DNA of 64,000 bases from assembly GCF_055900595.2 (NCBI RefSeq), contig NZ_CM148325.1; one strand, given 5' to 3'. Positions 1 to 61,590 of this stretch are shown piece after piece (within the stretch, counting starts at the first letter, position 1; every line of letters begins with the position of its first letter). Both the position numbers and the translations under genes were made by a program. The notes below the pieces were generated by a model that made no database searches, had not been told where the DNA came from, and saw nothing but the letters and a program-made list of their open reading frames with translations.

Positions 1-1
1 T

Positions 2-619
2 ATTGAATTTGCGCTTGGCAAGCAGGTATTAAAGTTTGGCGAGTTTACGCTGAAGTCCGGGCGCAAAAGCCCCTATTTCTTCAACGCCGGGCTGTTTAAT
101 ACCGGGCGCGATCTGGCACTGTTAGGCCGTTTTTACGCTGAAGCGTTAGTGGATTCCGGCATTGAGTTCGATCTGCTGTTTGGCCCTGCTTACAAAGGGA
201 TCCCGATTGCCACCACAACTGCCGTGGCGCTGGCGGAGCATCATGACCTGGACCTGCCGTACTGCTTTAACCGCAAAGAAGCAAAAGACCACGGTGAAGG
301 CGGCAATCTGGTTGGTAGCGCGTTACAAGGACGCGTAATGCTGGTGGATGATGTGATCACCGCCGGAACGGCGATTCGCGAGTCGATGGAAATTATTCAG
401 GCCAATGGCGCGACGCTTGCTGGTGTATTGATTTCGCTCGATCGTCAGGAGCGTGGTCGCGGCGAGATTTCGGCAATTCAGGAAGTTGAGCGTGATTACA
501 ACTGCAAAGTGATCTCTATCATCACCCTGAAAGACCTGATTGCTTATCTTGAAGAGAAGCCGGAAATGGCGGAACATCTGGCGGCGGTTAAGGCCTATCG
601 CGAAGAGTTCGGCGTTTAA
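2..619 (+). CDS. pyrE: orotate phosphoribosyltransferase, 5' end cut by window edge
   Basis: Frame from nt 2 translates [30 protein letters not shown]..., continuous with the track ORF 149..619 and ending ...AYREEFGV; matches PyrE as I remember it. Confidence 0.95.
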
Positions 620-626
620 AAATATG

Positions 627-655
627 CGCTGCGCAGGTTTTTACTGTGCGCAGCG
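627..655. terminator. perfect 9-bp inverted repeat (cgctgcgca / tgcgcagcg) just after pyrE stop; likely pyrE terminator or attenuator-like hairpin
   Basis: Inverted repeat read directly; no strong T-run after it. Confidence 0.45.
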
Positions 656-689
656 TGATGCGGTTTAAGATATCGTGTTAATCTGCTTT

Positions 690-883
690 CGCCAGCAGTG
701 GCAATAGCGTTTCCGGCCTTTTGTGCCGGGAGGGTCGGCGAGTCGCCGACTTAACGCCAGTAGTTTGTCCAGATACCCAAAGTCGCTCCATTGTACTTAA
801 GTACGCTTCGCGTACGTCGCGCTGACGCGCTCAGTACAGTTACGCGCCTTCGGGATAGTTTGAGGGTATTGCCGCTGTTGGTG
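690..883 (+). ncRNA. msr-msd: retron msr-msd locus (template for msDNA), bounded by a1/a2 inverted repeats
   Basis: a1 (cgccagcagtggcaatagc, ~690-708) and a2 (ggtattgccgctgttggtg, ~865-883) can pair over about 18 of 19 positions as RNA including G-U wobbles; several internal palindromes (gtcggcg/cgccgac, gtacgc/gcgtac, gcgc-tgac-gcgc) typical of msd stem-loops; lies immediately 5' of an RT ORF. Confidence 0.7.
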
Positions 884-915
884 CCTCTTTTGGTCGCCGT
901 GATGTGGAGAGTGGA

Positions 916-1875
916 ATGGATGCTACCCGGATAACCCTTCTGGCGCTTGATTTGTTCGGCTCGCCGGGCTGGAGCGCCGATAAAGAAATACAGCGGCTGT
1001 ATGCGCTCAGTAATCATGCCGCACGCCATTACCGACGGATTATTCTTTCTAAGCGTCACGGCGGTCAGCGGGTGGTGTTAGCCCCTGATTACTTGCTCAA
1101 AACCGTACAGCGCAACATTCTTAAGAACGTCCTTTCACAATTCCCTCTTTCCCCTTTTGCTACCGCCTACCGACAGGGTCGCCCAATCGTCAGCAACGCG
1201 CAGCCTCACTGCCAACAGCCGCAGATCCTTAAACTCGATATCGAAAACTTTTTCGATAGCATTAGCTGGTTACAGGTCTGGCGTGTGTTTAGCCAGACCC
1301 AGTTGCCACGCAATGTGGTAACCATGCTGACCTGGCTTTGTTGCTATAACGACGCGTTACCGCAGGGGGCGCCAACTTCGCCTGCCATTTCCAATCTTGT
1401 GATGCGCCGTTTTGATGAGTGCATAGGGGAATGGTGTCAGGCTCGGGGAATTACCTACACCCGCTACTGCGATGACATGACCTTTTCTGGTCACTTCAAT
1501 GCCCGCCAGGTTAAAAATAAAGTATGCGGATTGTTAGCGGAGCTGGGCCTGAGCCTCAATCAACGCAAAAGTTGCCTGATAGCTGCCTGTAAGCGCCAGC
1601 AGGTAACCGGGATTGTTGTTAATCACAAGCCACAGCTTGCCCGTGAAGCGCGCCGGGCGCTGCGTCAGGAAGTACACTTGTGCCAAAAATATGGCGTTAT
1701 TTCGCATCTTAGTCATCGTGGTGAACTTGATCCTTCTGGCGATCTCCACGCACAGGCAACGGCGTATCTTTATGCTTTGCAGGGAAGAATAAACTGGTTA
1801 TTGCAAATCAATCCTGAGGATGAGGCCTTTAAACAGGCGAGGGTGAGTGTAAAGCGAATGCTGGTGGCATGGTAA
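916..1875 (+). CDS. retron-type reverse transcriptase (Ec107-like), 319 aa from ATG at 916
   Basis: Track ORF 904..1875; RT motifs QGAPTSPAISNL and YCDDMTFSG (YxDD box); GGAG Shine-Dalgarno 6 nt before the ATG at 916; position between pyrE and slmA matches the described retron-Ec107 site. Confidence 0.85.
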   Translation: MDATRITLLALDLFGSPGWSADKEIQRLYALSNHAARHYRRIILSKRHGGQRVVLAPDYLLKTVQRNILKNVLSQFPLSPFATAYRQGRPIVSNAQPHCQQPQILKLDIENFFDSISWLQVWRVFSQTQLPRNVVTMLTWLCCYNDALPQGAPTSPAISNLVMRRFDECIGEWCQARGITYTRYCDDMTFSGHFNARQVKNKVCGLLAELGLSLNQRKSCLIAACKRQQVTGIVVNHKPQLAREARRALRQEVHLCQKYGVISHLSHRGELDPSGDLHAQATAYLYALQGRINWLLQINPEDEAFKQARVSVKRMLVAW

Positions 1876-1883
1876 GAAAAGCG

Positions 1884-1905
1884 TCAGGCAGACGTTTCTG
1901 CCTGA
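1884..1905. terminator. hairpin (tcaggcaga-cgtt-tctgcctga) between convergent RT and slmA
   Basis: Perfect 9-bp stem with 4-nt loop read from sequence. Confidence 0.4.
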
Positions 1906-1918
1906 ACGTTTGGGAGAA

Positions 1919-2515
1919 TTACTGCAACTGCGCAGCAATTAGCGGCCAGCGGGCGTCAAAGTCATCCGTCGGGCGGTATTTAAACTCGCTGCGGACAAAG
2001 CGTGACAGCATACCTTCACAGAAGGCCAGGATCTGGCTTGCCAGCAGGGTTTCGTCGGTGGTGTAACCTTCACCCTCACGCATTCTCTTTTCACGCAATA
2101 CCTGACGCAACTGCGCTTCAATACGCTCGAATAGCTGGTTGATGCGCCCTTGCAGGCGATCCTGTTCAAACATTAGTGCATGACCAGTGAGGATGCGGGT
2201 CAGGCCAGGATTACGCTCACCAAAACCGAGAAGCAGCAACACAATCAGACGCAGGCGCGCTGTGGTGTCTTTCTCATCTTTCAGAATCAGATTGATGCGA
2301 GTAATCAGGCTATCTTCGATAAACTCAATCAGGCTATCGAACATGCGGGTCTTACTGGGGAAGTGGCGATACAGTGCCGCTTCGGAAACGCCGACAGAGG
2401 CGGCCAGTTTTGCCGTCGTGATACGTTGGCTTCCATCGCTGGATTCCAGCATCAGCGCCAGAGACTGAAGTATTTCCTCGCGACGGTTCCTTTTCGCAGT
2501 TTGTTTTTCTGCCAT
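1919..2515 (-). CDS. slmA: nucleoid occlusion factor SlmA (TetR family), 198 aa
   Basis: Track ORF 1919..2557; start placed at [19 protein letters not shown]... (ATG at 2513-2515). Confidence 0.9.
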
Positions 2516-2620
2516 GTTACAAAATACCCCTGAAAATAAGCACTTGCCAGGCGGCACCCACGCTATGACCGCAAACGAAATGTTTGCGGCTATGTTATGA
2601 CGTTATTCGGATGCGTAGTG

Positions 2621-3079
2621 TTACTGACGACCAGAGTGACCAAAGCCGCCTTCACCGCGGTCGGTGGCGTCGAAATCTTCCACCAGATTAAATTCAGCCT
2701 GTACTACCGGAACAAAAATCATCTGGGCGATGCGTTCGCCAGGTTGAATGGTGAAGCTGTCCTGACCACGGTTCCACACGGAAATCATCAACTGGCCCTG
2801 ATAGTCAGAATCGATCAATCCTACCAGGTTACCAAGCACGATACCGTGCTTATGTCCCAATCCGGAGCGCGGCAGCATCATTGCCGCCAGTGAAGGATCG
2901 GCAATATGAATCGCCAGCCCGGTCGGAACCAGCGTAGTGTCACCCGGAGCCAGTTCTACGGCGTCGTCGAGACAGGCACGCAGGTCAAGTCCGGCAGAGC
3001 CAGAGGTGGCATAAGTCGGGAGCGGAAATTCCTTCCCAACGCGCGGGTCCAGAATCTTAACGTCGATTTTTTTCATCAT
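2621..3079 (-). CDS. dut: dUTP diphosphatase
   Basis: [36 protein letters not shown]...; 152-aa ORF. Confidence 0.95.
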
Positions 3080-4277
3080 AACGGGTCACGATCTCGTCGA
3101 GTAATAATTGGCCAAGGAGCTCTTTGCGCTCAAGCGGTAAGACTTTATCTCCGTCCTGCCAGAAAAGGTGTAATGCGTTGTTGTCGCTGTTAAATCCTTG
3201 AGTTGGCTGGGAAACATCGTTCGCGCAGATCAGATCAAGGTTTTTACGGATACGTTTTTGCCGGGCGTATTCTTCCACATTATTTGTTTCGGCGGCAAAT
3301 CCAACGACGTAGGGTCGATGGTCTTTTAGTGCGGCAACGCCTGCGACGATATCGGGGTTTTTAACCATTTTTATTGTTAATTCATCACCCTGCGTGGCCT
3401 GCTTTTTGATTTTCTCTGGGGCTACGGTAGCTGCGCGATAATCCGCCACGGCGGCGCAACCGATAAAAATATTTTGCTGCTGTACAGAAGCATTTACGGC
3501 GGCTTCCATTTCCAGCGCAGTCATTACATCAACACGTTTAACAAACGGTGGCGTCGGTAGCGAAACCGGACCTGATACCAGTGTGACGTTCGCGCCACGA
3601 CGGGCAGCAGCAGCAGCGATAGCAAACCCCATCTTGCCGGAGCTGTGATTAGAGATATAACGCACCGGGTCAAGCGGTTCACGCGTCGGGCCGGCGGTAA
3701 TCATAATGTTCAGATGTTTCAGGTCGTTGACGGGCGAAAAATGTGCTACCGCCATATCAACAATGGTTAACGGATCGAGCATTCGCCCAGGGCCGATATC
3801 ACCACAAGCCTGACTGCCGCTATCTGGCCCCCAGATGAGCAAACCACGCGAGGCAAGCAGCTCTAAATTATGCTGCGTGGCAGCTGCACGGTACATCTGC
3901 TGGTTCATGGCGGGCAGCACGGCTACAGGCGCAGGTGTAGCCAGGCAAATCGTCGATACCAGGTCATTCGCCATTCCGGCAGCAACACGGGCAATCAAAT
4001 CTGCCGTGGCAGGGGCGAGAATCACTAAATCAGCCCATTTACCCAGCTCAATATGGCCCATAGCGGCTTCGGCTGCCGGGTCAAGCAGACTGTCGGAAAC
4101 GGGATACCCCGAAACTGCCTGCAAGCTAAGTGGGGTAATAAAGGCTTTTGCCGCTTCGGTCATGGCTACGCGGACGTCGGCCCCGCGATCGCGCAAACGA
4201 CGCGCCAGTTCAGGGGTTTTATAGGCAGCAATACCGCCGCTGACGCCGAGAACGATTTTTTTACCGGCCAGGCTCAT
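3057..4277 (-). CDS. coaBC: bifunctional phosphopantothenoylcysteine decarboxylase/synthetase CoaBC
   Basis: Track ORF 3057..4349; start placed at [20 protein letters not shown]; 3' end overlaps dut start. Confidence 0.93.
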
Positions 4278-4448
4278 GATGATTTTTCCTGTTGGGTGAC
4301 ACCAGAAGTTGGCGATTTTATCACAATACTTTTGTTGTCGTGCCTTCACCTGAAAATCACTTTGCGAGGCGCTTTCCAGGATTGAAAACTGACCGTCGAT
4401 TTAACGGAACGGCTATGACAGGATGCGAGCACCACAAAGGAGGTGAAG

Positions 4449-5117
4449 GTGAAAAACAATGCACAGCTGTTGATGCCGCGCGAAAAAATGCTGAAGTTTG
4501 GCATTGGTGCGTTAACGGATGTTGAGCTGCTGGCGCTATTTCTGCGTACCGGAACGCGCGGTAAAGATGTATTAACCCTGGCAAAAGAGATGCTGGAGAA
4601 TTTCGGCTCTCTTTATGGCTTGTTAACCTCTGAATATGAACAATTTAGCGGTGTTCATGGAATTGGTGTGGCGAAGTTCGCTCAGTTAAAGGGGATTGCT
4701 GAACTGGCGCGGCGTTACTACAACGTGCGGATGCGTGAAGAAAGCCCTTTACTCAGCCCGGAGATGACGAGGGAATTTTTACAAAGCCAGCTCACGGGCG
4801 AGGAGCGGGAGATCTTTATGGTGATCTTTCTCGACTCCCAACACAGGGTTATAACGCATAGCCGTCTTTTTTCCGGCACGCTAAACCATGTTGAAGTCCA
4901 TCCTCGGGAAATTATCCGCGAAGCGATAAAAATAAACGCCTCGGCGCTGATCCTTGCACATAATCACCCTTCGGGTTGTGCTGAACCCAGTAAAGCGGAT
5001 AAACTCATTACCGAACGGATAATAAAAAGTTGTCAGTTCATGGATTTACGCGTGCTCGACCATATCGTGATTGGGCGTGGAGAGTATGTTTCTTTTGCCG
5101 AACGCGGCTGGATTTAA
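4449..5117 (+). CDS. yicR: UPF0758/RadC-like JAB-domain protein YicR
   Basis: Track ORF 4443..5117; start moved to GTG at 4449 ([15 protein letters not shown]...) behind an AGGAGG SD; HNHPSG JAMM-like motif present. Confidence 0.85.
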
Positions 5118-5312
5118 CCCGCTATGCGCGATCCTTCGGGATCTTTGTCTGTTCGGGACTTGAGCACATCGCTGAGTCAGCGTATACTACGCCACCTTTG
5201 AGAATCTCGGGTTTGGCATTTGGGCCTGGCAATCGAGAGTTCACATAGAACTGCGATGACCGGGCTGTAAAGCCTGACGAGGCGCCAATACCCCATACGA
5301 AGCTCGAGCTAA

Positions 5313-5570
<258 letters not shown>

Positions 5571-5587
5571 GTACTTAGAGGAAATAA

Positions 5588-5758
<171 letters not shown>

Positions 5759-5780
5759 TTCTCGCTTTGATGTAACGAAA

Positions 5781-5806
5781 AACCTCGCTCCGGCGGGGTT
5801 TTTTGT
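5781..5806 (+). terminator. rho-independent terminator after rpmBG
   Basis: 8-bp stem (aacctcgc / gcggggtt, one G-U) with 4-nt loop followed by T-run. Confidence 0.6.
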
Positions 5807-5855
5807 TATCTGCTTGCCCCCATATTGACTGCATCTGTTGATTCCTGGAGATGCT

Positions 5856-6665
5856 ATGCCTGAATTACCCGAAGTTGAAACCAGCCGCCGCGGCATAGAA
5901 CCGCATCTCGTTGGTGCAACCATTCTTCATGCGGTGGTGCGCAACGGACGCCTGCGCTGGCCGGTTTCGGAAGAGATCTACCGTTTAAGCGACCAACCAG
6001 TGCTTAGCGTGCAGCGCCGGGCTAAATATCTGCTGCTGGAGCTGCCTGAGGGCTGGATTATCATTCATTTAGGGATGTCTGGCAGCCTGCGCATCCTTCC
6101 AGAAGAGCTTCCCCCTGAAAAGCATGACCATGTTGATTTGGTGATGAGCAACGGCAAAGTGCTACGCTACACCGATCCGCGCCGCTTTGGTGCCTGGCTG
6201 TGGACCAAAGAGCTGGAAGGGCACAACGTGCTGGCCCATCTTGGACCGGAGCCGCTTAGTGACGATTTCAACGGTGAGTACCTGCATCAGAAGTGCGCGA
6301 AGAAAAAAACGGCGATTAAACCGTGGCTGATGGATAACAAGCTGGTGGTAGGCGTAGGGAATATCTATGCCAGCGAATCTCTGTTTGCGGCGGGGATCCA
6401 TCCGGATCGGCTGGCGTCATCACTGTCGCTGGCGGAGTGTGAATTGTTAGCTCGGGTGATTAAAGCGGTGTTGCTGCGTTCGATTGAGCAGGGCGGTACA
6501 ACTCTGAAAGATTTTCTGCAAAGTGATGGTAAACCGGGCTATTTCGCTCAGGAATTGCAGGTTTACGGGCGAAAAGGCGAGCCGTGTCGGGTGTGCGGTA
6601 CGCCGATTGTGGCGACGAAACATGCGCAGCGGGCAACGTTTTATTGTCGGCAGTGCCAGAAGTAA
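5856..6665 (+). CDS. mutM: formamidopyrimidine-DNA glycosylase
   Basis: Start at [14 protein letters not shown]-terminal zinc finger [26 protein letters not shown]. Confidence 0.95.
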
Positions 6666-6703
6666 TTGATGCGCGCCGGATGGCATACCATCCGGCATAA
6701 ACG

Positions 6704-8468
<1,765 letters not shown>

Positions 8469-8819
8469 AGTAAATAGCTGACTTATGGATGTGCTGGGGA
8501 TTCTATGTATTTAGCTGTGGCTTTACCATTACTTTTCCCGTTTTTGACTTAAATAGCAATTTACCCACCAATTCTTGCTGAACATCTATACTTTTTTTGT
8601 ATTTTTATGCGATTCATTGATTTCCGCAGTACGTGCAGTAAGGAATCGCGGAGCAACAGTGAAAGAATATTGTTGCTAATGATTTTATTTGATTGATTTC
8701 TTTATTGAAAAACAACGATGTGCTTAAAAATCATTCGGATCGGATTGCCGCGAAAGAAGTGATACACTAGCGCGTCAATATCAGTACGGTATCAGTATTC
8801 AGGTAGCTGTTGAGCCTGG

Positions 8820-8831
8820 GGCGGTAGCGTG
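8820..8831 (+). promoter_or_regulatory. ops element (GGCGGTAGCGTG) in the waaQ leader, expected RfaH recruitment site within a JUMPstart-like region
   Basis: Exact ops 12-mer read about 50 nt upstream of waaQ start. Confidence 0.8.
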
Positions 8832-8880
8832 CTTTTTCTGCTTCACCTTAATCGGATAATCTCAACAAAAAGAGTTACTT

Positions 8881-9939
8881 GTGGATAAGCCATTTCGAAG
8901 AATTTTGCTCATTAAGATGCGTTTTCATGGGGATATGTTATTAACTACTCCTGTCATTAGTTCGCTGAAAAAAAATTACCCTGACGCAAAAATCGATGTG
9001 CTGCTTTATCAGGATACCATCCCGATTCTGTCTGAAAATCCAGAGATTAACGCGCTCTACGGCATAAAAAATAAAAAAGCAAAAGCCTCAGAGAAAATTT
9101 CCAACTTTTTTCATCTCATCAAGGTATTACGTGCCAATAAGTATGACCTTATCGTCAATCTTACCGATCAATGGATGGTTGCTATACTGGTTCGCTTATT
9201 AAATGCCCGTGTGAAAATTTCCCAGGATTATCATCATCGGCAGTCTGCTTTTTGGCGTAAAAGCTTCACCCATCTGGTGCCGTTGCAGGGTGGAAATGTG
9301 GTGGAAAGTAACTTATCCGTGCTGACGCCACTGGGTCTCGAATCGTTGGTGAAGCAGACAACGATGAGTTACCCGCCTGCAAGCTGGAAACGAATGCGTC
9401 GCGAACTGGATCACGCAGGTGTTGGACAAAATTATGTGGTTATCCAACCTACCGCGCGGCAAATCTTCAAATGCTGGGACAACGCCAAGTTTTCCGCTGT
9501 GATTGATGCCTTACATACACGTGGCTATGAAGTCGTTCTGACGTCCGGCCCGGATAAAGACGATCTGGCCTGCGTCAATGAAATTGCGCAGGGATGCCAG
9601 ACGCCACCAGTAACGGCGTTGGCCGGAAAGGTAACCTTCCCGGAACTTGGTGCGTTAATCGATCATGCGCAGCTGTTTATTGGCGTTGATTCCGCACCGG
9701 CGCACATTGCCGCTGCAGTTAATACGCCGCTGATATCGCTGTTTGGTGCAACAGACCATATTTTCTGGCGTCCCTGGTCAAATAACATGATTCAATTCTG
9801 GGCGGGAGATTACCGGGAAATGCCAACACGCGATCAGCGTGACCGAAATGAGATGTATCTTTCGGTTATTCCGGCGGCAGATGTCATTGCTGCTGTTGAT
9901 AAATTATTGCCATCCTCCACGACAGGTACGTCGTTATGA
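8881..9939 (+). CDS. waaQ: LPS heptosyltransferase III (GT9)
   Basis: ...MRFHGDMLLTTPVISSLKKNYPDAKIDVLLYQDTIPIL...; start ambiguous (GTG 8881 or ATG 8917). Confidence 0.85.
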   Translation: MDKPFRRILLIKMRFHGDMLLTTPVISSLKKNYPDAKIDVLLYQDTIPILSENPEINALYGIKNKKAKASEKISNFFHLIKVLRANKYDLIVNLTDQWMVAILVRLLNARVKISQDYHHRQSAFWRKSFTHLVPLQGGNVVESNLSVLTPLGLESLVKQTTMSYPPASWKRMRRELDHAGVGQNYVVIQPTARQIFKCWDNAKFSAVIDALHTRGYEVVLTSGPDKDDLACVNEIAQGCQTPPVTALAGKVTFPELGALIDHAQLFIGVDSAPAHIAAAVNTPLISLFGATDHIFWRPWSNNMIQFWAGDYREMPTRDQRDRNEMYLSVIPAADVIAAVDKLLPSSTTGTSL

Positions 9940-11060
9940 TCGTTGCTTTCTGTTTATATAAATATTTTCCCTTTGGCGGTTTGCAACGCGATTTTATGCG
10001 TATTGCTCAGACAGTTGCGGCCCGAGGGCATCATGTTCGGGTTTATGCCCAGTCATGGGAAGGCGAATGCCCTGATGTGTTTGAACTGATCAACGTGCCG
10101 GTTAAGTCGCATACCAATCACGGGCGTAACGCGGAGTATTTTGCCTGGGTGCAAAAACATTTACGCGAGCATCCGGTCGATAAAGTCGTTGGATTCAACA
10201 AAATGCCGGGGCTGGACGTTTATTATGCCGCTGATGTTTGTTATGCCGAGAAAGTGGCGCAGGAGAAAGGCTTTTTCTATCGCCTGACGTCACGTTATCG
10301 CCATTATGCCGCCTTTGAGCGGGCAACCTTTGAACAGGGCAAGCCGACACAGTTGCTGATGCTGACGGACAAGCAAATCGCCGATTTCCAGAAACATTAT
10401 CAGACTGAAGCGGAGCGTTTTCATATTTTGCCTCCGGGGATTTATCCTGACCGTAAATATAGCCAGCAGCCAGCCAATAGCCGTGAAAGCTTTCGTAAGA
10501 AAAATGGAATAACAGAACAACAATATTTATTGTTGCAGGTCGGTTCAGACTTCACGCGTAAAGGTGTCGATCGTTCCATTGAAGCACTTGCTTCGCTCCC
10601 GGATTCACTGCGCCACAACACATTGCTATATGTTGTTGGGCAGGATAAACCGCGAAAATTTGAGGCACTGGCAGAAAAACGCGGCGTGCGCAGTAATGTT
10701 CACTTCTTCTCTGGGCGTAACGATGTCTCGGAATTAATGGCGGCGGCGGATTTATTACTGCATCCTGCCTACCAGGAAGCGGCGGGAATTGTGCTGCTGG
10801 AAGCGATTACTGCAGGATTACCGGTTCTAACAACTGCTGTTTGTGGTTATGCGCATTATATTGTTGACGCGAATTGCGGCGTGGCTATTGCTGAGCCATT
10901 CCGTCAGGAAACATTGAATGAGTTTTTACGCAAAGCGTTAACGCAATCTTCATTGCGCCAGGCCTGGGCGGAAAATGCGCGACATTATGCTGATACACAA
11001 GATTTATACAGTCTGCCAGAGAAAGCGGCGGATATCATAACGGGTGGTCTGGATGGTTGA
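9936..11060 (+). CDS. waaG: LPS core glucosyltransferase I (GT4)
   Basis: 374 aa, [37 protein letters not shown]... Confidence 0.92.
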
Positions 11061-36551: not shown

Positions 36552-39500
36552 TTACCACTGAATACCGGCACCGAGTGCGGCGGAGTATTCACCCTGGCTA
36601 TTGGTACTACCTTGTAATTTGTAGACCCAACGACCATTGGCGCTCACCATCGACACACCTAAAGCAACAGCCGATTCGCCGTTGTAAGTACCACCACCAA
36701 TAGAGGCCATGCTGGCTCCCGGCGTGTAAGCCTGCGGCAGACCGGTCATTGCCATTGCGGAAGCGATACCACCGCTCAACTTGCTTTCGGTTTTGGACAG
36801 TTTGTTATCCATCTCAACCATGCGCTGATCGGTGTATTGCTTCGTTTCCTGCACACTTTGCTTCAACTGTGCATAGTTCACTGCGTCGTTGTTGTTCACG
36901 CCCGCAGAAACGTTGCTGATGCGAGTCGTACCGCCATTGCCGCCACCGAGAGTGATGTTGCTGTAGTCGATAGAGCCATCAGCTTTGGTGTCGTAGCGAA
37001 CGCCACCTGCTTCGGAAGACTTCAGTTGCGAAACGTTAACCGCATCGGTGGCATTAACACCGGCAGCAACGTTGGTGATACGGCGCTGGTTGGTAGAAGA
37101 ACCCACAGAGATTGTGTTTTCTTCGTTGGCCACGGAGCCTGTACCCAGAGCGACGCTGTTGTCAGCGGCAGCAATGGATCCAGAACCAATCGCCACACTG
37201 TCTTTACCCTGGGCGTTAGCATCTACGCCATCGGTGTTGGTCTTGAAGTACTTGGTGCTACCTGTGGTTACGATATCGCCAATACCGTTCTCGATATTGG
37301 TCACGCGAGTATCCAGATTCGTCACCTGATTGTTCAGGTTAGTAATGCTCTGGGTATTCTGGGAAACCTGCGCATCCGTTACTTTCAATTGACCCACGTT
37401 GACCGCATCGGTATCAGCCGAACCAGCCGCGACGTTGGTGATCTGACGTTGACCGTCTTCGCTACCTACGGAGAATTCACCCACAGAGTTCTGCGGTGCA
37501 TCCATGTTGTAGGCGGTGTAGCCAGTTTGTGCGCCACGGGTAGTTTGAGAACCATTACCCATTGCAATGCTGTTTGCATGGTTTGCACGCGCGTTGCTAC
37601 CGATAGCAATACCGTTAATCGCATCTGCCAGAACTAAAGTGTTCAGGCCGATACCAATACCTGCATTACCATTAACGATGGTTTTTGCGCCCATTGCCAG
37701 CGAGTCTTCACCGATTGCCAGTGAGTCTTCAGCCGTTGAATTGGCGTGATAGTATTTGGTTGGCGTGGTGGCTACTGCACCAATGGCATTCTGCAACTGG
37801 CGAACCGTAACGGCGTCATGGGCTTCAGAACCATCGGCAACATTGATGATTTGACGATATTTACCATCGTCACCGATCGACAATGCGCCAAGCAGTTCAC
37901 CGTCAGTTGTGTCATAACCAATCACAACACCTTCTTCCGATACGCTGGTGTCACGAGAACCTTTAACTATTAAACGGCTGGAAACGGAACTGCTACCCAG
38001 AGCGATACCTGTATCAACGTTGCTGTAACTGTCCTGACCGATGGCTACACTGCTGGCACGAGAGGCAACAGCGTTATAACCCACAGCGGTAGCACCAATA
38101 CCTGAAGCGCTGGCATCGTTGAATGCTAAGCCGTTGTCGTTGGTACGCACATAGTTAATACCCGCGCCATTTTCTTCGATGTAGGTTTCACTGGTGTTAC
38201 CGGCAAGCTGATTGATGACTTCGCTGTTCTGCTGGATCAGCATATTGGTGTTAAACAGCTGAGAACCGTTCACTGCATCGGTGCTACCTTCACCAATGTT
38301 ACCATCAGCAACGTTTGTGATAATGCTGGCCTTGCCGTCATGACTGGCGTTGTAAGCCCCTTCGCCGTTATTGGCGGTCGCATCCCACAGCAGCGCGTTC
38401 TCATCAAGCGCATCCAGAGCGTCACCGACATTGTTGTACTCGGCATTCGCAATGGTGTAAGTCGGCGCAGTGATAGTACCGTCAGCGTTAACTTCTGCAT
38501 CACCGCCCAGAGCATCTGCGATATATTTATTAGTGGTATAGAGTTGTGAGCCGTTAATCGCGTCGCTGCTGGTGGCAGAGATTGCACCATTTGCGACGTT
38601 AGTAATCTTACTGGCAGTGTTATCTACCCCACGACCGGCGCTGAATGCACCAGCACCGTCATTGGCTGTTGCATCCCAGAGCAGGGCGTCATCCAGTGTG
38701 GTATCGATCGCTTCCAGTGCGTCACCAACGTTGCTGTAACTGCCGCCAGCGATGGCATAAGTCGGTGTGGTGATACTGCCGTCCGCATTCACCACAGCGT
38801 TCCCGCCCAGAGCATCGGCAATGTAGTCACTAACGCCATAAAGTTGAGAACCATTAATAGCGTCGCTACTGGTGGATGAGACTGCACCGTTTGCAACATC
38901 AGTGATTACACTGGGATCATTATTAATGCCGTGTTTGGCGCTGAATTTGCCTGCGGTTGTATCCCAGAGCAGAGCATCACCGAGAGAATCACTAAATGAA
39001 GTGTTAATCGCAGCCAGAGCATCCCCGACGCTAGTGTAGTCAGTGCCGCCAATACTATAGGTTGGCCCGGTTAATATACCTGTATCGCTAATATCAGCCC
39101 CACCACCCAGATAGGACGTGAATGAATCAGCCAAACCGTAAAGTTGTGAGCCATTAATGGCGTCAGTGCTGTCAGAGGAGACTATGCCAGCTTGTACGTT
39201 GCTGATTTTGTTGGCGGCGTTAGTGCCGTGTGCAGCGGTGAATGCGCCTGCGGCGTCGTCCCATTTCAGGGCGTCTTCACCGAGGTTAGTCACCGTATCA
39301 GTCAGGTTAGTGATATTGGTGGTGTTGGTCGCCACATCGTCCTTGGTCGCTTTCAGCTGAGAACCATTAACGGCGTCGGTGCTGGTGTCAGAGAGCTCGC
39401 CAGCGGTGACGTTAGTGATTTTGTTGGTGGCGTTGGTGCCGTGTGCAGCGGTGAATGCGCCTGCGGCATCGTCCCATTTCAGGGCGTCTTCACCGAGGTT

Positions 39501-41363
39501 AGTCACCGTATCAGTCAGGTTAGTGATGTTGGTGGTGTTAGTTGCCACGTTATCGTTAGTGGTTTTCAACTGAGAACCGTTAACGGCGTCGGTGCTGGTG
39601 TCAGAGAGCTCGCCAGCGGTGACGTTAGTGATTTTGTTGGTGGCGTTGGTGCCGTGTGCAGCGGTGAATGCGCCTGCGGCATCGTCCCATTTCAGGGCGT
39701 CTTCACTAAGGTCAGTCACCGTATCAGTCAGGTTAGTGATATTGGTGGTGTTGGTCGCCACATCGTCCTTGGTCGCTTTCAGCTGAGAACCATTAACGGC
39801 GTCGGTGCTGGTGTCAGAGAGCTCGCCAGCGGTGACGTTAGTGATTTTGTTGGTGGCGTTGGTGCCGCGTGCAGCGGTGAATGCGCCTGCGGCATCGTCC
39901 CATTTCAGGGCGTCTTCACCGAGGTTAGTCACCGTATCAGTCAGGTTAGTGATATTAGTGGTGTTGCCAGCCACTTCGCTCGTCAGGTTAGTGATGTTGG
40001 TGGTGTTTGCCGCCACATCGTCCTTGGTCGCTTTCAGCTGAGAACCGTTGACGGCGTCGGTGCTGGTGTCAGAGAGGTCGCCAGCGGTGACATTGGTGAT
40101 TTTGCTAGTGGCGTTGTTGCCATGGGCAGCGCTGTATTTGCCATTGGTTTGGTCCCATTGCAGAGTGTTTTCATCAAGTACAGTGAGCGCATCGCCAACG
40201 TTATTTTTGTTACCATTTTTTAAGTTGTAGGCGGGGGCTTTAACTGTACCGTCGTCAACGTTTACCGATGCGCCTCCACCCAGTCGTTTTGCTACCGAGT
40301 CGCTGATGGCATAAAGCTGCGAGCCATTAATGGCGTCATTGCTGTCAGCTTTGATGGTGCCATTTTTCACATTCACGATCTTGCGTTTTAATGAGTCATT
40401 ACCGACAGAAACGCTATCGTCCAGATCCGCAATCGAACCTGCCCCCAACGCGACGGCGTTAATACCGTTGGCGCTGGTATTACTACCAAGCGCAAGACTA
40501 TTATCGCCCGTGACAACACTGGTTTTACCTAAAGCAATAGAGTTTAAGCCACTCGATTGGCTACCATTACCCAGAACGATAGCATCTGTACCATTAGCTT
40601 TGTTGCCCTGACCTATGGCAATTTCGCTATCTGCCAAAGCCTGGCTGCCATTGCCCAATACGATAGTATTGGTTTTATCGGCAAGGCTCCCGGAGCCCAG
40701 CGCCATGCTATTAGTCCCTTTTGCCTTCGCATTATTGCCAATGGCGGTAGCATTTTCAGCGGCTTCGGTGTTAGTGCCCATCGCGATGGAGTCCGTTCCT
40801 GATGCATTTGCCAATCGTCCTAATGCAAGAGCATTAGCAGCACTTGCTACCGTATCTTTGCCCAACGCCATGGCACCTTCACCTTTAGCTTGAGCAGAAT
40901 TCCCCAGTGCAAGTGTATAATCGCTGGTCGCTTTAGCTGCACTGCCGATGGCGATAGCTCGGCTGCCCGTTGATACCGTTGATTGCCCTAAGCCAACCGA
41001 TCTTTCTCCTGATGAGTTACTTGAGAAGCCAATTGCCGTACTGCCCACCCCGGCGGTCGAACCTATTCCTACCGCAACACTTCCTGTATTCTCTGTTCCT
41101 GAACCCTTTGGCTCTGATGATGCGACAGCACCTTTACCAATGGCAATCCAGTCATTACTGAGTGGCGTTGCCTCTGCGCTTTTACCACCGTCAAGTGAAA
41201 CCGAAGCATTGGCCCCAACGGGTGAGAGTAGCCCACCCGCAACCAGCGCGGAAATTAACAGCTTACTACGCCCGCTCTTTTTTCCACGACTCTTCGCCGT
41301 TTCGCTGGCAACGCTATAGCTGCCCGTCGCTGGATTCCAGATAACTTTAAAAATTTTGTTCAT
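36552..41363 (-). CDS. trimeric autotransporter adhesin (YadA-like; UpaG/EhaG/SadA family), 1603 aa
   Basis: N-terminal extended signal peptide [21 protein letters not shown]...; long repetitive Ser/Thr/Asn/Gly-rich passenger with NGSQL-type head/neck motifs; C-terminal YadA-type anchor ending ...[36 protein letters not shown]. Confidence 0.85.
39166..40060. repeat. tandem array of about 4 copies of a 213-bp (71-aa) unit inside the adhesin gene
   Basis: Plus-strand artefact ORFs start at 39379, 39592 and 39805 (213-nt spacing) with near-identical translations; the adhesin shows repeated [71 protein letters not shown] blocks. Confidence 0.85.
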
Positions 41364-61504: not shown

Positions 61505-61590
61505 CAGGCTTGATAAGACGCGTTAAGCGTCGCATCAGGCAATGTGCACCCTACGTTGGATGCGGCGCGAGCGCCTTATCCAACCTACGG
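61505..61590. repeat. REP/BIME element overlapping the stop codon of the downstream GH127 gene
   Basis: aggcttgataagacgcgttaagcgtcgcatcaggca and ggatgcggcgcgagcgccttatccaacctacgg. Confidence 0.65.

What the first reader, a model, noticed from the sequence alone, without database searches (positions are those of the whole stretch)
690..883. Candidate a1/a2 inverted repeats and msd stem-loops define the msr-msd template
cgccagcagtggcaatagc (690-708) and ggtattgccgctgttggtg (865-883) can pair over about 18 of 19 positions as RNA if G-U wobbles are allowed. Between them lie several perfect short palindromes (gtcggcg/cgccgac at ~735-752; gtacgc-ttc-gcgtac at ~801-815; gcgc-tgac-gcgc at ~820-832) that look like the msd DNA stem-loop and msr hairpins. 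The boundaries are by eye and approximate.
Basis: seen in the sequence. Interest (0 to 1): 0.55.

Follow-up and report, generated by a model that had tools for sequence, protein, structure and literature searches.

The report
Known retron-Ec107 msr-msd RNA gene

Summary
Bases 690-706 pair with 867-883 over 17 contiguous pairs, 3 of them G-U. This is the a1/a2 stem of a retron non-coding RNA. The single "mismatch", G707 opposite G866, has the geometry of a retron branching G.

The RNA fold scores z = -6.7. The structure covaries in 10 enterobacterial and about 58 further homologous loci.

A 319-aa reverse transcriptase follows at 916-1875. It carries the NAXXH, YCDD and VTG motifs and hits PADLOC RT_Ec107-like at E = 7e-133. 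The 1297-bp insert (621-1917) replaces a 34-bp palindrome between pyrE and slmA, as published for retron-Ec107.

The window carries a minor allele. Its ncRNA is 100% identical to that of EPEC E2348/69 and differs at 10 of 194 nt from the classical allele. Its RT is 96% identical to the classical Ec107 RT.

No effector gene is adjacent, which is also already known. The msDNA ends and the branch point are inferred, not measured. Verdict: already known, low interest.

The parts
621..1917 (+). Whole retron insert (1297 bp) between the pyrE stop (617-619) and the slmA stop. It replaces the 34-bp palindromic spacer found in retron-free E. coli.
   Evidence: Alignment with the empty site of strain CEA212U (L003): GAAACTCGCCGGATGAAAAGTCATCCGGCGTCAT is replaced. 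381 of 5426 complete E. coli genomes carry the insert, always as a single chromosomal copy. Simon 2019 (PMC6868368) states that Eco5 replaces a palindromic 34 bp.
627..655 (+). Perfect 9-bp hairpin (cgctgcgca / tgcgcagcg) at the left end of the insert. It probably stands in for the lost pyrE terminator (inferred).
   Evidence: Inverted repeat I4. A homologous hairpin is retained in the Pseudocitrobacter loci.
676..684 (+). Candidate extended -10 promoter TGtTAATCT, which would start transcription at about 690-692 (inferred).
   Evidence: TGnTA...T is conserved at the same distance from a1 in relatives: TGCTATGCT, TGCTATTCT, TGTTATGAT. The simple sigma-70 scan did not call it.
690..883 (+). msr-msd non-coding RNA, from a1 to a2.
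   Evidence: Fold z = -6.67. Consensus structure of 59 pairs, 22 with compensatory changes in 10 sequences. The CM R1 has a single hit in the window, 689-884 on the + strand, 216.7 bits (by construction). The same model finds full-length hits upstream of the RT in about 58 of 80 relatives.
690..706 (+). a1 inverted repeat (left arm).
   Evidence: 17 contiguous pairs with 867-883. 8 of 17 pairs show double changes in alignment A4 and 16 of 17 in A5.
707..707 (+). Predicted branching (priming) G, whose 2'-OH would prime cDNA synthesis.
   Evidence: Invariant G immediately 3' of a1, opposite invariant G866. It is G in 48/58 family members. The geometry is that of other retrons (established knowledge). 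The branch itself was not tested.
   Evidence: Helix 3: 4 of 6 pairs with compensatory changes. 84.9% paired in A5.
732..752 (+). msr hairpin 2 (732-740 / 744-752, loop AGU).
   Evidence: Helix 4: 4 of 9 pairs compensatory, 98.9% paired. 95% paired in A5. Palindrome I7.
759..865 (-). Predicted msd: the template copied into the 107-nt msDNA, which has the sequence of the minus strand. The ends are approximate (a few nt).
   Evidence: The first template base is taken as the base 5' of invariant G866, by analogy with Ec86. The length of 107 comes from the element's name, and there are no indels against classical Ec107. Kong et al. 2021 replaced 774-854 as the 'replaceable' msd region. DNA fold -20.8 kcal/mol, z = -3.1.
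776..854 (+).
   Evidence: Helices 5-8. Helices 6-10 are 84-99% paired with compensatory changes.
866..866 (+). Invariant G opposite the branching G, immediately 5' of a2.
   Evidence: Invariant in A4. G in 55/58 sequences in A5.
867..883 (+). a2 inverted repeat (right arm).
   Evidence: Same evidence as for a1.
916..1875 (+). Retron reverse transcriptase, 319 aa counted from the ATG, with NAQPH (region X), YCDD and VTG motifs.
   Evidence: PADLOC RT_Ec107-like 6.9e-133. Pfam RVT_1. 305/319 identical to UniRef Q05804_ECOLX. dN/dS 0.14-0.22 between alleles. Annotated in RefSeq only as 'reverse transcriptase family protein'.
1884..1905 (.). Hairpin with flanking T/A runs between the convergent RT and slmA genes; a likely bidirectional terminator carried by the insert.
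   Evidence: Terminator-like site called on the minus strand. The sequence was read.

Best explanation
**Identity.** Window 690-883 is the msr-msd gene of a retron-Ec107 (Retron-Eco5) allele.

**Inferred mechanism.**
1. One transcript starts at about 690, from an extended -10 promoter at 676-684. It runs through msr-msd and the RT gene (916-1875) to the hairpin at 1884-1905.
2. The RNA folds so that a1 (690-706) pairs with a2 (867-883). This places G707 at the inner end of the stem, opposite G866.
3. The RT recognises the two msr hairpins (711-731 and 732-752).
4. The RT primes from the 2'-OH of G707 and copies the template leftward from about 865 to about 759, while host RNase H removes the copied RNA.
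5. The product is a branched msDNA: about 107 nt of DNA (minus-strand sequence, folded as a three-way junction) joined 2'-5' to about 75 nt of RNA (690 to about 764).

**Shown here.** The sequence, the fold, the covariation of every helix, the RT family and its motifs, the genomic site, and the identity to known alleles.

**Inferred.** The promoter, the branch point, the msDNA ends, and the production of msDNA by this allele.

**Biological role.** It remains unsettled because there is no adjacent effector gene.
For: - **Fold.** z = -6.67 on the + strand against -3.97 on the - strand.
- **Covariation, enterobacterial set.** 59-pair consensus, 22 compensatory pairs in 10 homologues, 96.1% of cells paired against 29-44% when partners are slid.
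- **Covariation, wider family.** The same model finds the RNA directly upstream of the RT on the RT strand in about 58 of 80 relatives. There 57/59 pairs show double changes and 89.9% are paired, against 66.7% in shuffles.
- **RT.** Best PADLOC model is RT_Ec107-like at 6.9e-133. It has YCDD as reported for RT-Eco5, plus NAXXH and VTG.
- **Site.** The insert replaces exactly 34 bp between pyrE and slmA, as published.
- **Classical allele.** The L002 allele equals the published Ec107 primers, and its RT is 100% identical to Q05804_ECOLX. The window differs at 10/194 nt in the ncRNA and 14/319 aa in the RT.
- **Strain match.** The ncRNA is 100% identical to that of E2348/69.
- **Function retained.** The RT is under purifying selection.
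Against: - No msDNA was measured for this allele.
- Rfam 15 has no family that recognises the region, even at E <= 1.
- The simple promoter scan found no sigma-70 site upstream.
- The window allele lacks the CCAT/ATGG basal msd stem that the classical allele forms as DNA.
- RNAalifold proposes an alternative 4-bp helix, 707-710/754-757, that would pair the putative branching G. It is weakly supported: 92.5% paired in A4 but only about 64% in the wider set.
- The original Ec107 papers could not be read, so the exact ends rest on analogy and on my recollection of them.
Confidence: 0.95

Rival explanations
1. The retron is present but this allele is inactive. It would be a decaying relic whose ncRNA or RT substitutions abolish msDNA synthesis.
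For: There are 10 substitutions in the ncRNA relative to classical Ec107, 8 of them in the predicted msd (759-865). The classical CCAT/ATGG basal DNA stem is lost. The RT has 14 amino-acid changes.
Against: The RT reading frame is intact with all catalytic and retron motifs. dN/dS is 0.14-0.22. All conserved helices are intact, and the window scores 216.7 bits on the family model. The ncRNA is identical to that of E2348/69. Elfenbein 2015 cites that serotype as producing msDNA and reports an in-vivo phenotype for its RT deletion.
Confidence: 0.04
2. The stem-loops are ordinary intergenic terminator or REP-like palindromes, or a cis-acting leader that regulates the downstream gene, and are not a reverse-transcription template.
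For: The retron-free site also holds a palindrome, the 34-bp bidirectional terminator. Intergenic regions of E. coli are rich in palindromes.
Against: A 194-nt multi-helix structure co-varies and always travels with an Ec107-like RT, from Enterobacterales to Lachnospiraceae. The invariant G/G geometry at the stem end is present. No Rfam leader or terminator family matches. The element is absent from 5045 of 5426 E. coli genomes together with the RT.
Confidence: 0.01

Closest known systems
Retron-Ec107 / Retron-Eco5 of E. coli ECOR70 (Herzer, Inouye & Inouye 1992; reviewed in PMC6868368)
   Same: Same chromosomal site (pyrE-ttk/slmA) and the same replacement of a 34-bp palindrome. Insert of about 1.3 kb containing only msr-msd and a 319-aa RT with a YCDD box. 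Same ncRNA architecture with no indels.
   Different: It is an allelic variant. 10 of 194 ncRNA positions differ: 747, 765, 772, 788, 797, 799, 857, 862, 864 and 882. 14 of 319 RT residues differ. The window allele is rare, in 13 of 381 carriers against 367 for the classical allele. It lacks the CCAT/ATGG basal stem of the classical msDNA.
Retron of EPEC O127:H6 E2348/69 (RT E2348C_3890; Elfenbein et al. 2015, PMC4569332)
   Same: The ncRNA 690-883 is 100% identical, and the whole stretch 601-1000 has no differences. Same site, and no accessory ORF.
   Different: The RT differs at 18 residues and 41 nt, so the window is a mosaic and not that strain. The closest genome is strain E200086 at 99.9%. 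That E2348C_3890 is the gene at this site is inferred: it is the only place in that genome that matches the ncRNA, and the old locus tag is not shown in RefSeq.
Retron-Ec86 (Eco1), the structural archetype of retrons
   Same: a1/a2 stem closing the ncRNA, a branching G directly 3' of a1 facing a G 5' of a2, msr hairpins, an msd stem-loop, and the RT downstream on the same strand (established knowledge; geometry seen).
   Different: Ec86 is prophage-borne and has an effector gene. RT identity is only 24% (supplement of PMC6868368). The Ec107-type msd is a three-way junction, and there is no effector.
Type III-A retrons (RT clade 2 relatives with PRTase-like effectors; Mestre et al. 2020, PMC7736814)
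   Same: They give the next-best PADLOC RT models (RT_III-A, 7e-94). Mestre et al. place Eco5 on a branch that shares a node with the PRTase-linked RTs.
   Different: No effector gene is next to this RT, nor to any of the 80 relatives examined. The adjacent pyrE is the housekeeping orotate phosphoribosyltransferase, present with or without the retron.

Membership tests
Retron (msr-msd + RT) | Reverse transcriptase of the retron clade, with the region-X NAXXH motif, a YXDD box and a VTG motif. | tested here: met
   PADLOC RT_Ec107-like 6.9e-133, with all other top hits being retron RT models. NAQPH at residues 94-98, YCDD at 184-187 and VTG at 230-232 in the translation. The group II intron RT model scores far below its cutoff.
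Retron (msr-msd + RT) | Structured ncRNA immediately upstream of the RT on the same strand, closed by the a1/a2 inverted repeats. | tested here: met
   17-bp a1/a2 stem at 690-706/867-883, 32 nt upstream of the RT start. Fold z = -6.67. Compensatory changes at 8/17 and 16/17 pairs.
Retron (msr-msd + RT) | Conserved priming G at the 3' end of a1. | tested here: met
   G707 is invariant in 10/10 sequences and is G in 48/58. It faces G866, which is invariant in 10/10 and G in 55/58. Only conservation and position were tested, not the branch.
Retron (msr-msd + RT) | msr hairpin(s) and a stable msd stem-loop between a1 and a2. | tested here: met
   Two msr hairpins and a branched msd structure, all with covariation. 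DNA fold of the predicted msDNA has z = -3.1.
Retron (msr-msd + RT) | Production of branched RNA-linked multicopy single-stranded DNA with a 2'-5' linkage. | not testable with these tools
   Needs purification and sequencing of msDNA. According to the literature, Ec107 produces msDNA, and Elfenbein 2015 cites serotype O127:H6 as producing it.
Retron as a tripartite defence system (Millman 2020; Mestre 2020) | Adjacent or fused effector gene. | tested here: not met
   The insert holds only the ncRNA and the RT. No gene family is conserved next to the RT in 80 relatives. One sub-branch shares downstream genes, but these are a YchF GTPase and a Bax-inhibitor-family protein, so this is plain synteny. 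Mestre 2020 also calls this a stand-alone cassette.
Retron-Ec107 / Eco5 specifically | Located between pyrE and ttk (slmA), replacing a 34-bp palindrome; element of about 1.3 kb. | tested here: met
   The insert at 621-1917 is 1297 bp, and the 34-bp palindrome is present in the empty site L003. Published description.
Retron-Ec107 / Eco5 specifically | 319-aa RT with a YCDD catalytic box. | tested here: met
   319 aa from ATG 916 with a YCDD box. 96% identical to Q05804_ECOLX. YCDD is reported for RT-Eco5.
Retron-Ec107 / Eco5 specifically | ncRNA sequence equal to the published msDNA-Ec107 template. | tested here: inconclusive
   Only primer-length pieces of the published sequence could be retrieved. 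They match the L002 allele exactly. The window differs from them at 765, 772, 857, 862 and 864, and overall at 10/194 positions from L002. The window is therefore an allele of Ec107, not the type sequence.

The most novel reading that the evidence does not exclude
Ec107-type retrons form a family that works without any cis-encoded effector: no gene is conserved beside the RT in any of the 80 loci examined. Their msDNA is a three-way junction whose core sequence, the GUAC/GUAC helix, is nearly invariant from E. coli to Lachnospiraceae. The msDNA might therefore act on its own, as a regulator or decoy, or through an unlinked host partner, rather than through the canonical retron-effector abortive-infection route. 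The reported gut-persistence defect of the E2348/69 RT mutant would be one read-out of such a role.
Probability: 0.25. Interest if true: 0.6.

Novelty: already known. Interest (0 to 1): 0.12.

Why it matters
For the scan, this is a correct re-discovery of a textbook element from raw sequence. It also shows that RefSeq still annotates only a "reverse transcriptase family protein" here and leaves the ncRNA unannotated.

Biologically, Ec107/Eco5 remains the odd E. coli retron. It is chromosomal, not prophage-borne and has no effector, so its function is still open. The exact allele present matters to anyone using Eco5 ncRNA for genome editing or studying the EPEC colonisation phenotype. None of this is new information about how retrons work.

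Tried and rejected
- **Rfam.** Searches at E <= 1 over 1-10000 and at gathering threshold over the whole window found no retron or msr family at 690-883. Rfam does not cover this ncRNA.
- **Promoter scan.** The sigma-70 scan found nothing upstream of a1. The promoter proposal rests only on a conserved extended -10 motif.
- **Original papers.** The Ec107 papers on RNase H and starvation induction (PMC176584, PMC178209) are not held. A full-text search for an a1 sequence string returned nothing. The supplement of Simon 2019 holds only images for the ncRNA. The published msDNA ends could therefore not be checked, and only primer fragments from Kong et al. 2021 were usable.
- **C708-G865 pair.** I rejected it because position 865 varies without compensation.
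- **Helix 707-710/754-757.** RNAalifold proposed it. I kept it only as an open alternative, because support is weak in the wide alignment.
- **Effector search.** All-against-all clustering of ORFs within 3.5 kb of the RT in 80 loci found nothing conserved except antisense shadow ORFs. The one sub-branch with shared downstream genes turned out to carry YchF and a Bax-inhibitor-family protein, with no PADLOC hits.
- **pyrE as effector.** I rejected the idea as unsupported. pyrE is there without the retron in 93% of E. coli genomes. The Leminorella richardii homologue, whose flanks I examined, sits between cyaY and an adenylate cyclase gene, and its pyrE-less context argues against any need for pyrE.

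Full report
**What is in the sequence.** The window begins in pyrE (stop codon at 617-619). slmA, dut and coaBC follow on the minus strand from 1919. Between pyrE and slmA lie 1297 bp (621-1917) that most E. coli genomes lack.

As RNA they pair at 18 of 19 positions, with three G-U wobbles (691/882, 695/878, 699/874). The single mismatch is G707 opposite G866 (inverted repeat I2).

The three palindromes are also real:
- 734-740/744-750;
- 801-806/810-815;

**Is it more than chance?** The evidence says yes.
- The 194-nt RNA folds at -89.9 kcal/mol, against -66.0 +/- 3.6 for dinucleotide shuffles (z = -6.67, 0 of 200 as good). The a1/a2 stem closes the structure.
- The complementary strand folds worse (-75.4 kcal/mol, z = -3.97). 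This is expected if the G-U pairs matter, and it fixes the transcribed strand as +.
- A contiguous stem of at least 17 pairs appears in only 7 of 1000 shuffles of the intergenic region.

**What it belongs to.** A 319-aa ORF starts 32 nt downstream of a2 (ATG 916, stop at 1875).
- Its best PADLOC model is RT_Ec107-like (6.9e-133). Every other top hit is a retron RT model.
- Pfam sees RVT_1.
- It carries NAQPH, YCDD and VTG. YCDD is the variant catalytic box reported for RT-Eco5/Ec107.
- Comparison with a retron-free genome shows that the insert replaces exactly 34 bp of palindromic spacer, GAAACTCGCCGGATGAAAAGTCATCCGGCGTCAT. That is the published hallmark of retron-Ec107.

**Which allele.** Among 5426 complete E. 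coli genomes, 381 carry the ncRNA, always once and always on the chromosome. It is never annotated.
- 367 genomes carry an allele 95.3% identical to the window. 13 carry the window allele at 99% or more.
- The common allele (L002) matches the Ec107 primer sequences published by Kong et al. 2021 exactly. Its RT is 100% identical to UniRef Q05804_ECOLX. It is therefore the classical Ec107.
- The window differs from it at 10 of 194 ncRNA positions and at 14 of 319 RT residues.
- The window ncRNA is 100% identical to that of EPEC O127:H6 E2348/69. Yet the window RT differs from the E2348/69 RT at 18 residues, while 601-1000 has no differences at all. The locus is therefore a recombinational mosaic.
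- The closest genome is strain E200086 at 99.9%.
- Between alleles the RT has dN/dS of 0.14-0.22, and its dS is similar to that of the neighbouring slmA. The retron looks like an old, functional resident of the chromosome and not a recent arrival.

**Comparative test of the structure.** RT homologues were collected. Upstream regions from ten enterobacterial loci align over 200 columns. These loci are the three E. coli/Escherichia alleles, an unnamed Enterobacteriaceae lineage, three Pseudocitrobacter sequences, two Leminorella species and Budvicia.

RNAalifold gives 59 pairs, 22 of them with compensatory changes. Counting on that structure gives:
- 96.1% of cells paired, against 89.8% in shuffles (0 of 500 shuffles reach the observed value);
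- 29-44% paired when the partners are slid by 1-3 columns;
- double changes at 8 of the 17 a1/a2 pairs.

A covariance model built from this alignment finds a full-length match directly upstream of the RT, on the RT strand, in about 58 of 80 relatives. Most of these are Lachnospiraceae and other gut Firmicutes. On that alignment 57 of 59 pairs show double changes, and 89.9% of cells pair against 66.7% in shuffles and 30-43% when slid. That alignment is fitted to the model, so the figures lean towards the structure.

The resulting anatomy, in window coordinates, is:

| Feature | Coordinates |
|---|---|
| a1 / a2 | 690-706 / 867-883 |
| msr hairpin 2 | 732-740 / 744-752 |
| msd basal stem | 776-786 / 844-854 |
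| msd middle stem (GUAC/GUAC, nearly invariant) | 793-796 / 834-837 |
| msd tip hairpin 1 | 801-815 |
| msd tip hairpin 2 | 819-830 |

The msd is thus a three-way junction.

G707 and G866 are invariant in the ten sequences. In the wider family they are G in 48/58 and 55/58.

**Mechanism.** By analogy with characterised retrons (established knowledge; Ec86 geometry), G707 is the branching G.
1. The RT primes from the 2'-OH of G707.
2. It copies the RNA from the base 5' of G866 (about 865) leftward.
3. RNase H removes the template as it is copied.
4. Synthesis stops about 107 nt later, at about 759. This leaves the DNA joined to about 75 nt of RNA (690 to about 764).

Three observations are consistent with this. 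Kong et al. treated 774-854 as the replaceable msd core. There are no indels relative to classical Ec107. I also recall, without having been able to verify it because the papers are not held, that msDNA-Ec107 is branched from the 18th G of a 75-nt RNA. With a 5' end at 690, G707 is residue 18.

A conserved TGnTAnnnT motif 5-8 nt upstream of a1 (676-684 here) suggests an extended -10 promoter starting at about 690. The generic scan did not call it. The promoter, the branch point and the msDNA ends are all inferences.

**Function.** The insert holds nothing but the ncRNA and the RT.
- No neighbouring gene family is conserved across the 80 relatives.
- The only shared downstream genes, in one sub-branch, are YchF and a Bax-inhibitor-family protein, so this is plain synteny.
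- This agrees with Mestre et al. [quoted passage not shown] A 2026 preprint reports using an Ec107_like covariance model attributed to them.
- Millman et al. left Ec107 out of their defence assays.
- Elfenbein et al. 2015 reported that an E2348/69 mutant lacking its retron RT fails to persist in the mouse gut. That the gene they deleted is the one at this site is inferred.
- The role of the element is therefore still open, but that gap is already recognised in the literature.

**Verdict.** The element is retron-Ec107/Eco5 in a minor, mosaic allele. It is already known and of low interest as a discovery.

Noticed in passing
window 601-1000 versus 1001-2400: The locus is a mosaic. The window has no differences from EPEC E2348/69 across the promoter, the ncRNA and the RT 5' end, but 41 nt and 18 aa differences in the rest of the RT, plus further differences in the flanks. 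At least three RT alleles about 95% identical, and one 87% identical, circulate in Escherichia.
   Followed up: partly
L084-L088, L004, L005 (pyrE-slmA site in other Enterobacteriaceae): RT homologues only 70-72% identical occupy the same pyrE-slmA intergenic site in Pseudocitrobacter and in an unnamed Enterobacteriaceae lineage, with a homologous left-end hairpin. This suggests an ancient insertion with vertical descent and repeated loss. In Leminorella richardii the element sits between cyaY and an adenylate cyclase gene.
   Followed up: partly
L008-L083: Most Ec107-like RT/ncRNA pairs retrieved from species-representative genomes are in gut Firmicutes (Lachnospiraceae, Oscillospiraceae, Bacilli/Tenericutes MAGs) at 40-56% identity. 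Mestre 2020 described clade 2 as mostly gammaproteobacterial.
   Followed up: no
window 793-796 / 834-837 (msd middle stem): The GUAC/GUAC helix inside the msd is almost invariant in sequence across phyla (53-58 of about 60 sequences keep each pair unchanged). That is unusual for an msd, where structure is usually conserved and sequence is not.
   Followed up: no
window 707-710 / 754-757: RNAalifold predicts a 4-bp helix (GCGU/ACGC) that would pair the putative branching G and close a junction around the two msr hairpins. It has one compensatory change and is 92.5% paired among Enterobacterales, but only about 64% in the wide alignment.
   Followed up: partly
window 769-774 / 855-862: The substitutions that separate the window allele from classical Ec107 cluster at the base of the msd. 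They remove the classical CCAT/ATGG DNA stem. In the RNA they are replaced by a G-U-rich CAGAU/GUUUG pairing that cannot form in the DNA.
   Followed up: partly
window 8793-8831 (+): A JUMPstart RNA element (Rfam RF01707, 55.2 bits) lies upstream of rfaQ at the head of the waa LPS-core operon.
   Followed up: no
window 61507-61585 (-): Match to Rfam naRNA4 (RF02564, 67.8 bits), a REP-derived nucleoid-associated RNA.
   Followed up: no
window 36552-41171 (-): In the near-identical strain E200086 this stretch is annotated as a 4.6-kb gene for a YadA-like trimeric autotransporter, followed by a DUF3251 gene, between lldP and yibL.
   Followed up: no
window 1442-1801 region (-), and relatives: An antisense ORF of about 120 aa overlapping the RT gene is 'conserved' in 45 of 80 loci. 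It is most likely a shadow ORF of the conserved RT coding sequence and not a gene.
   Followed up: no
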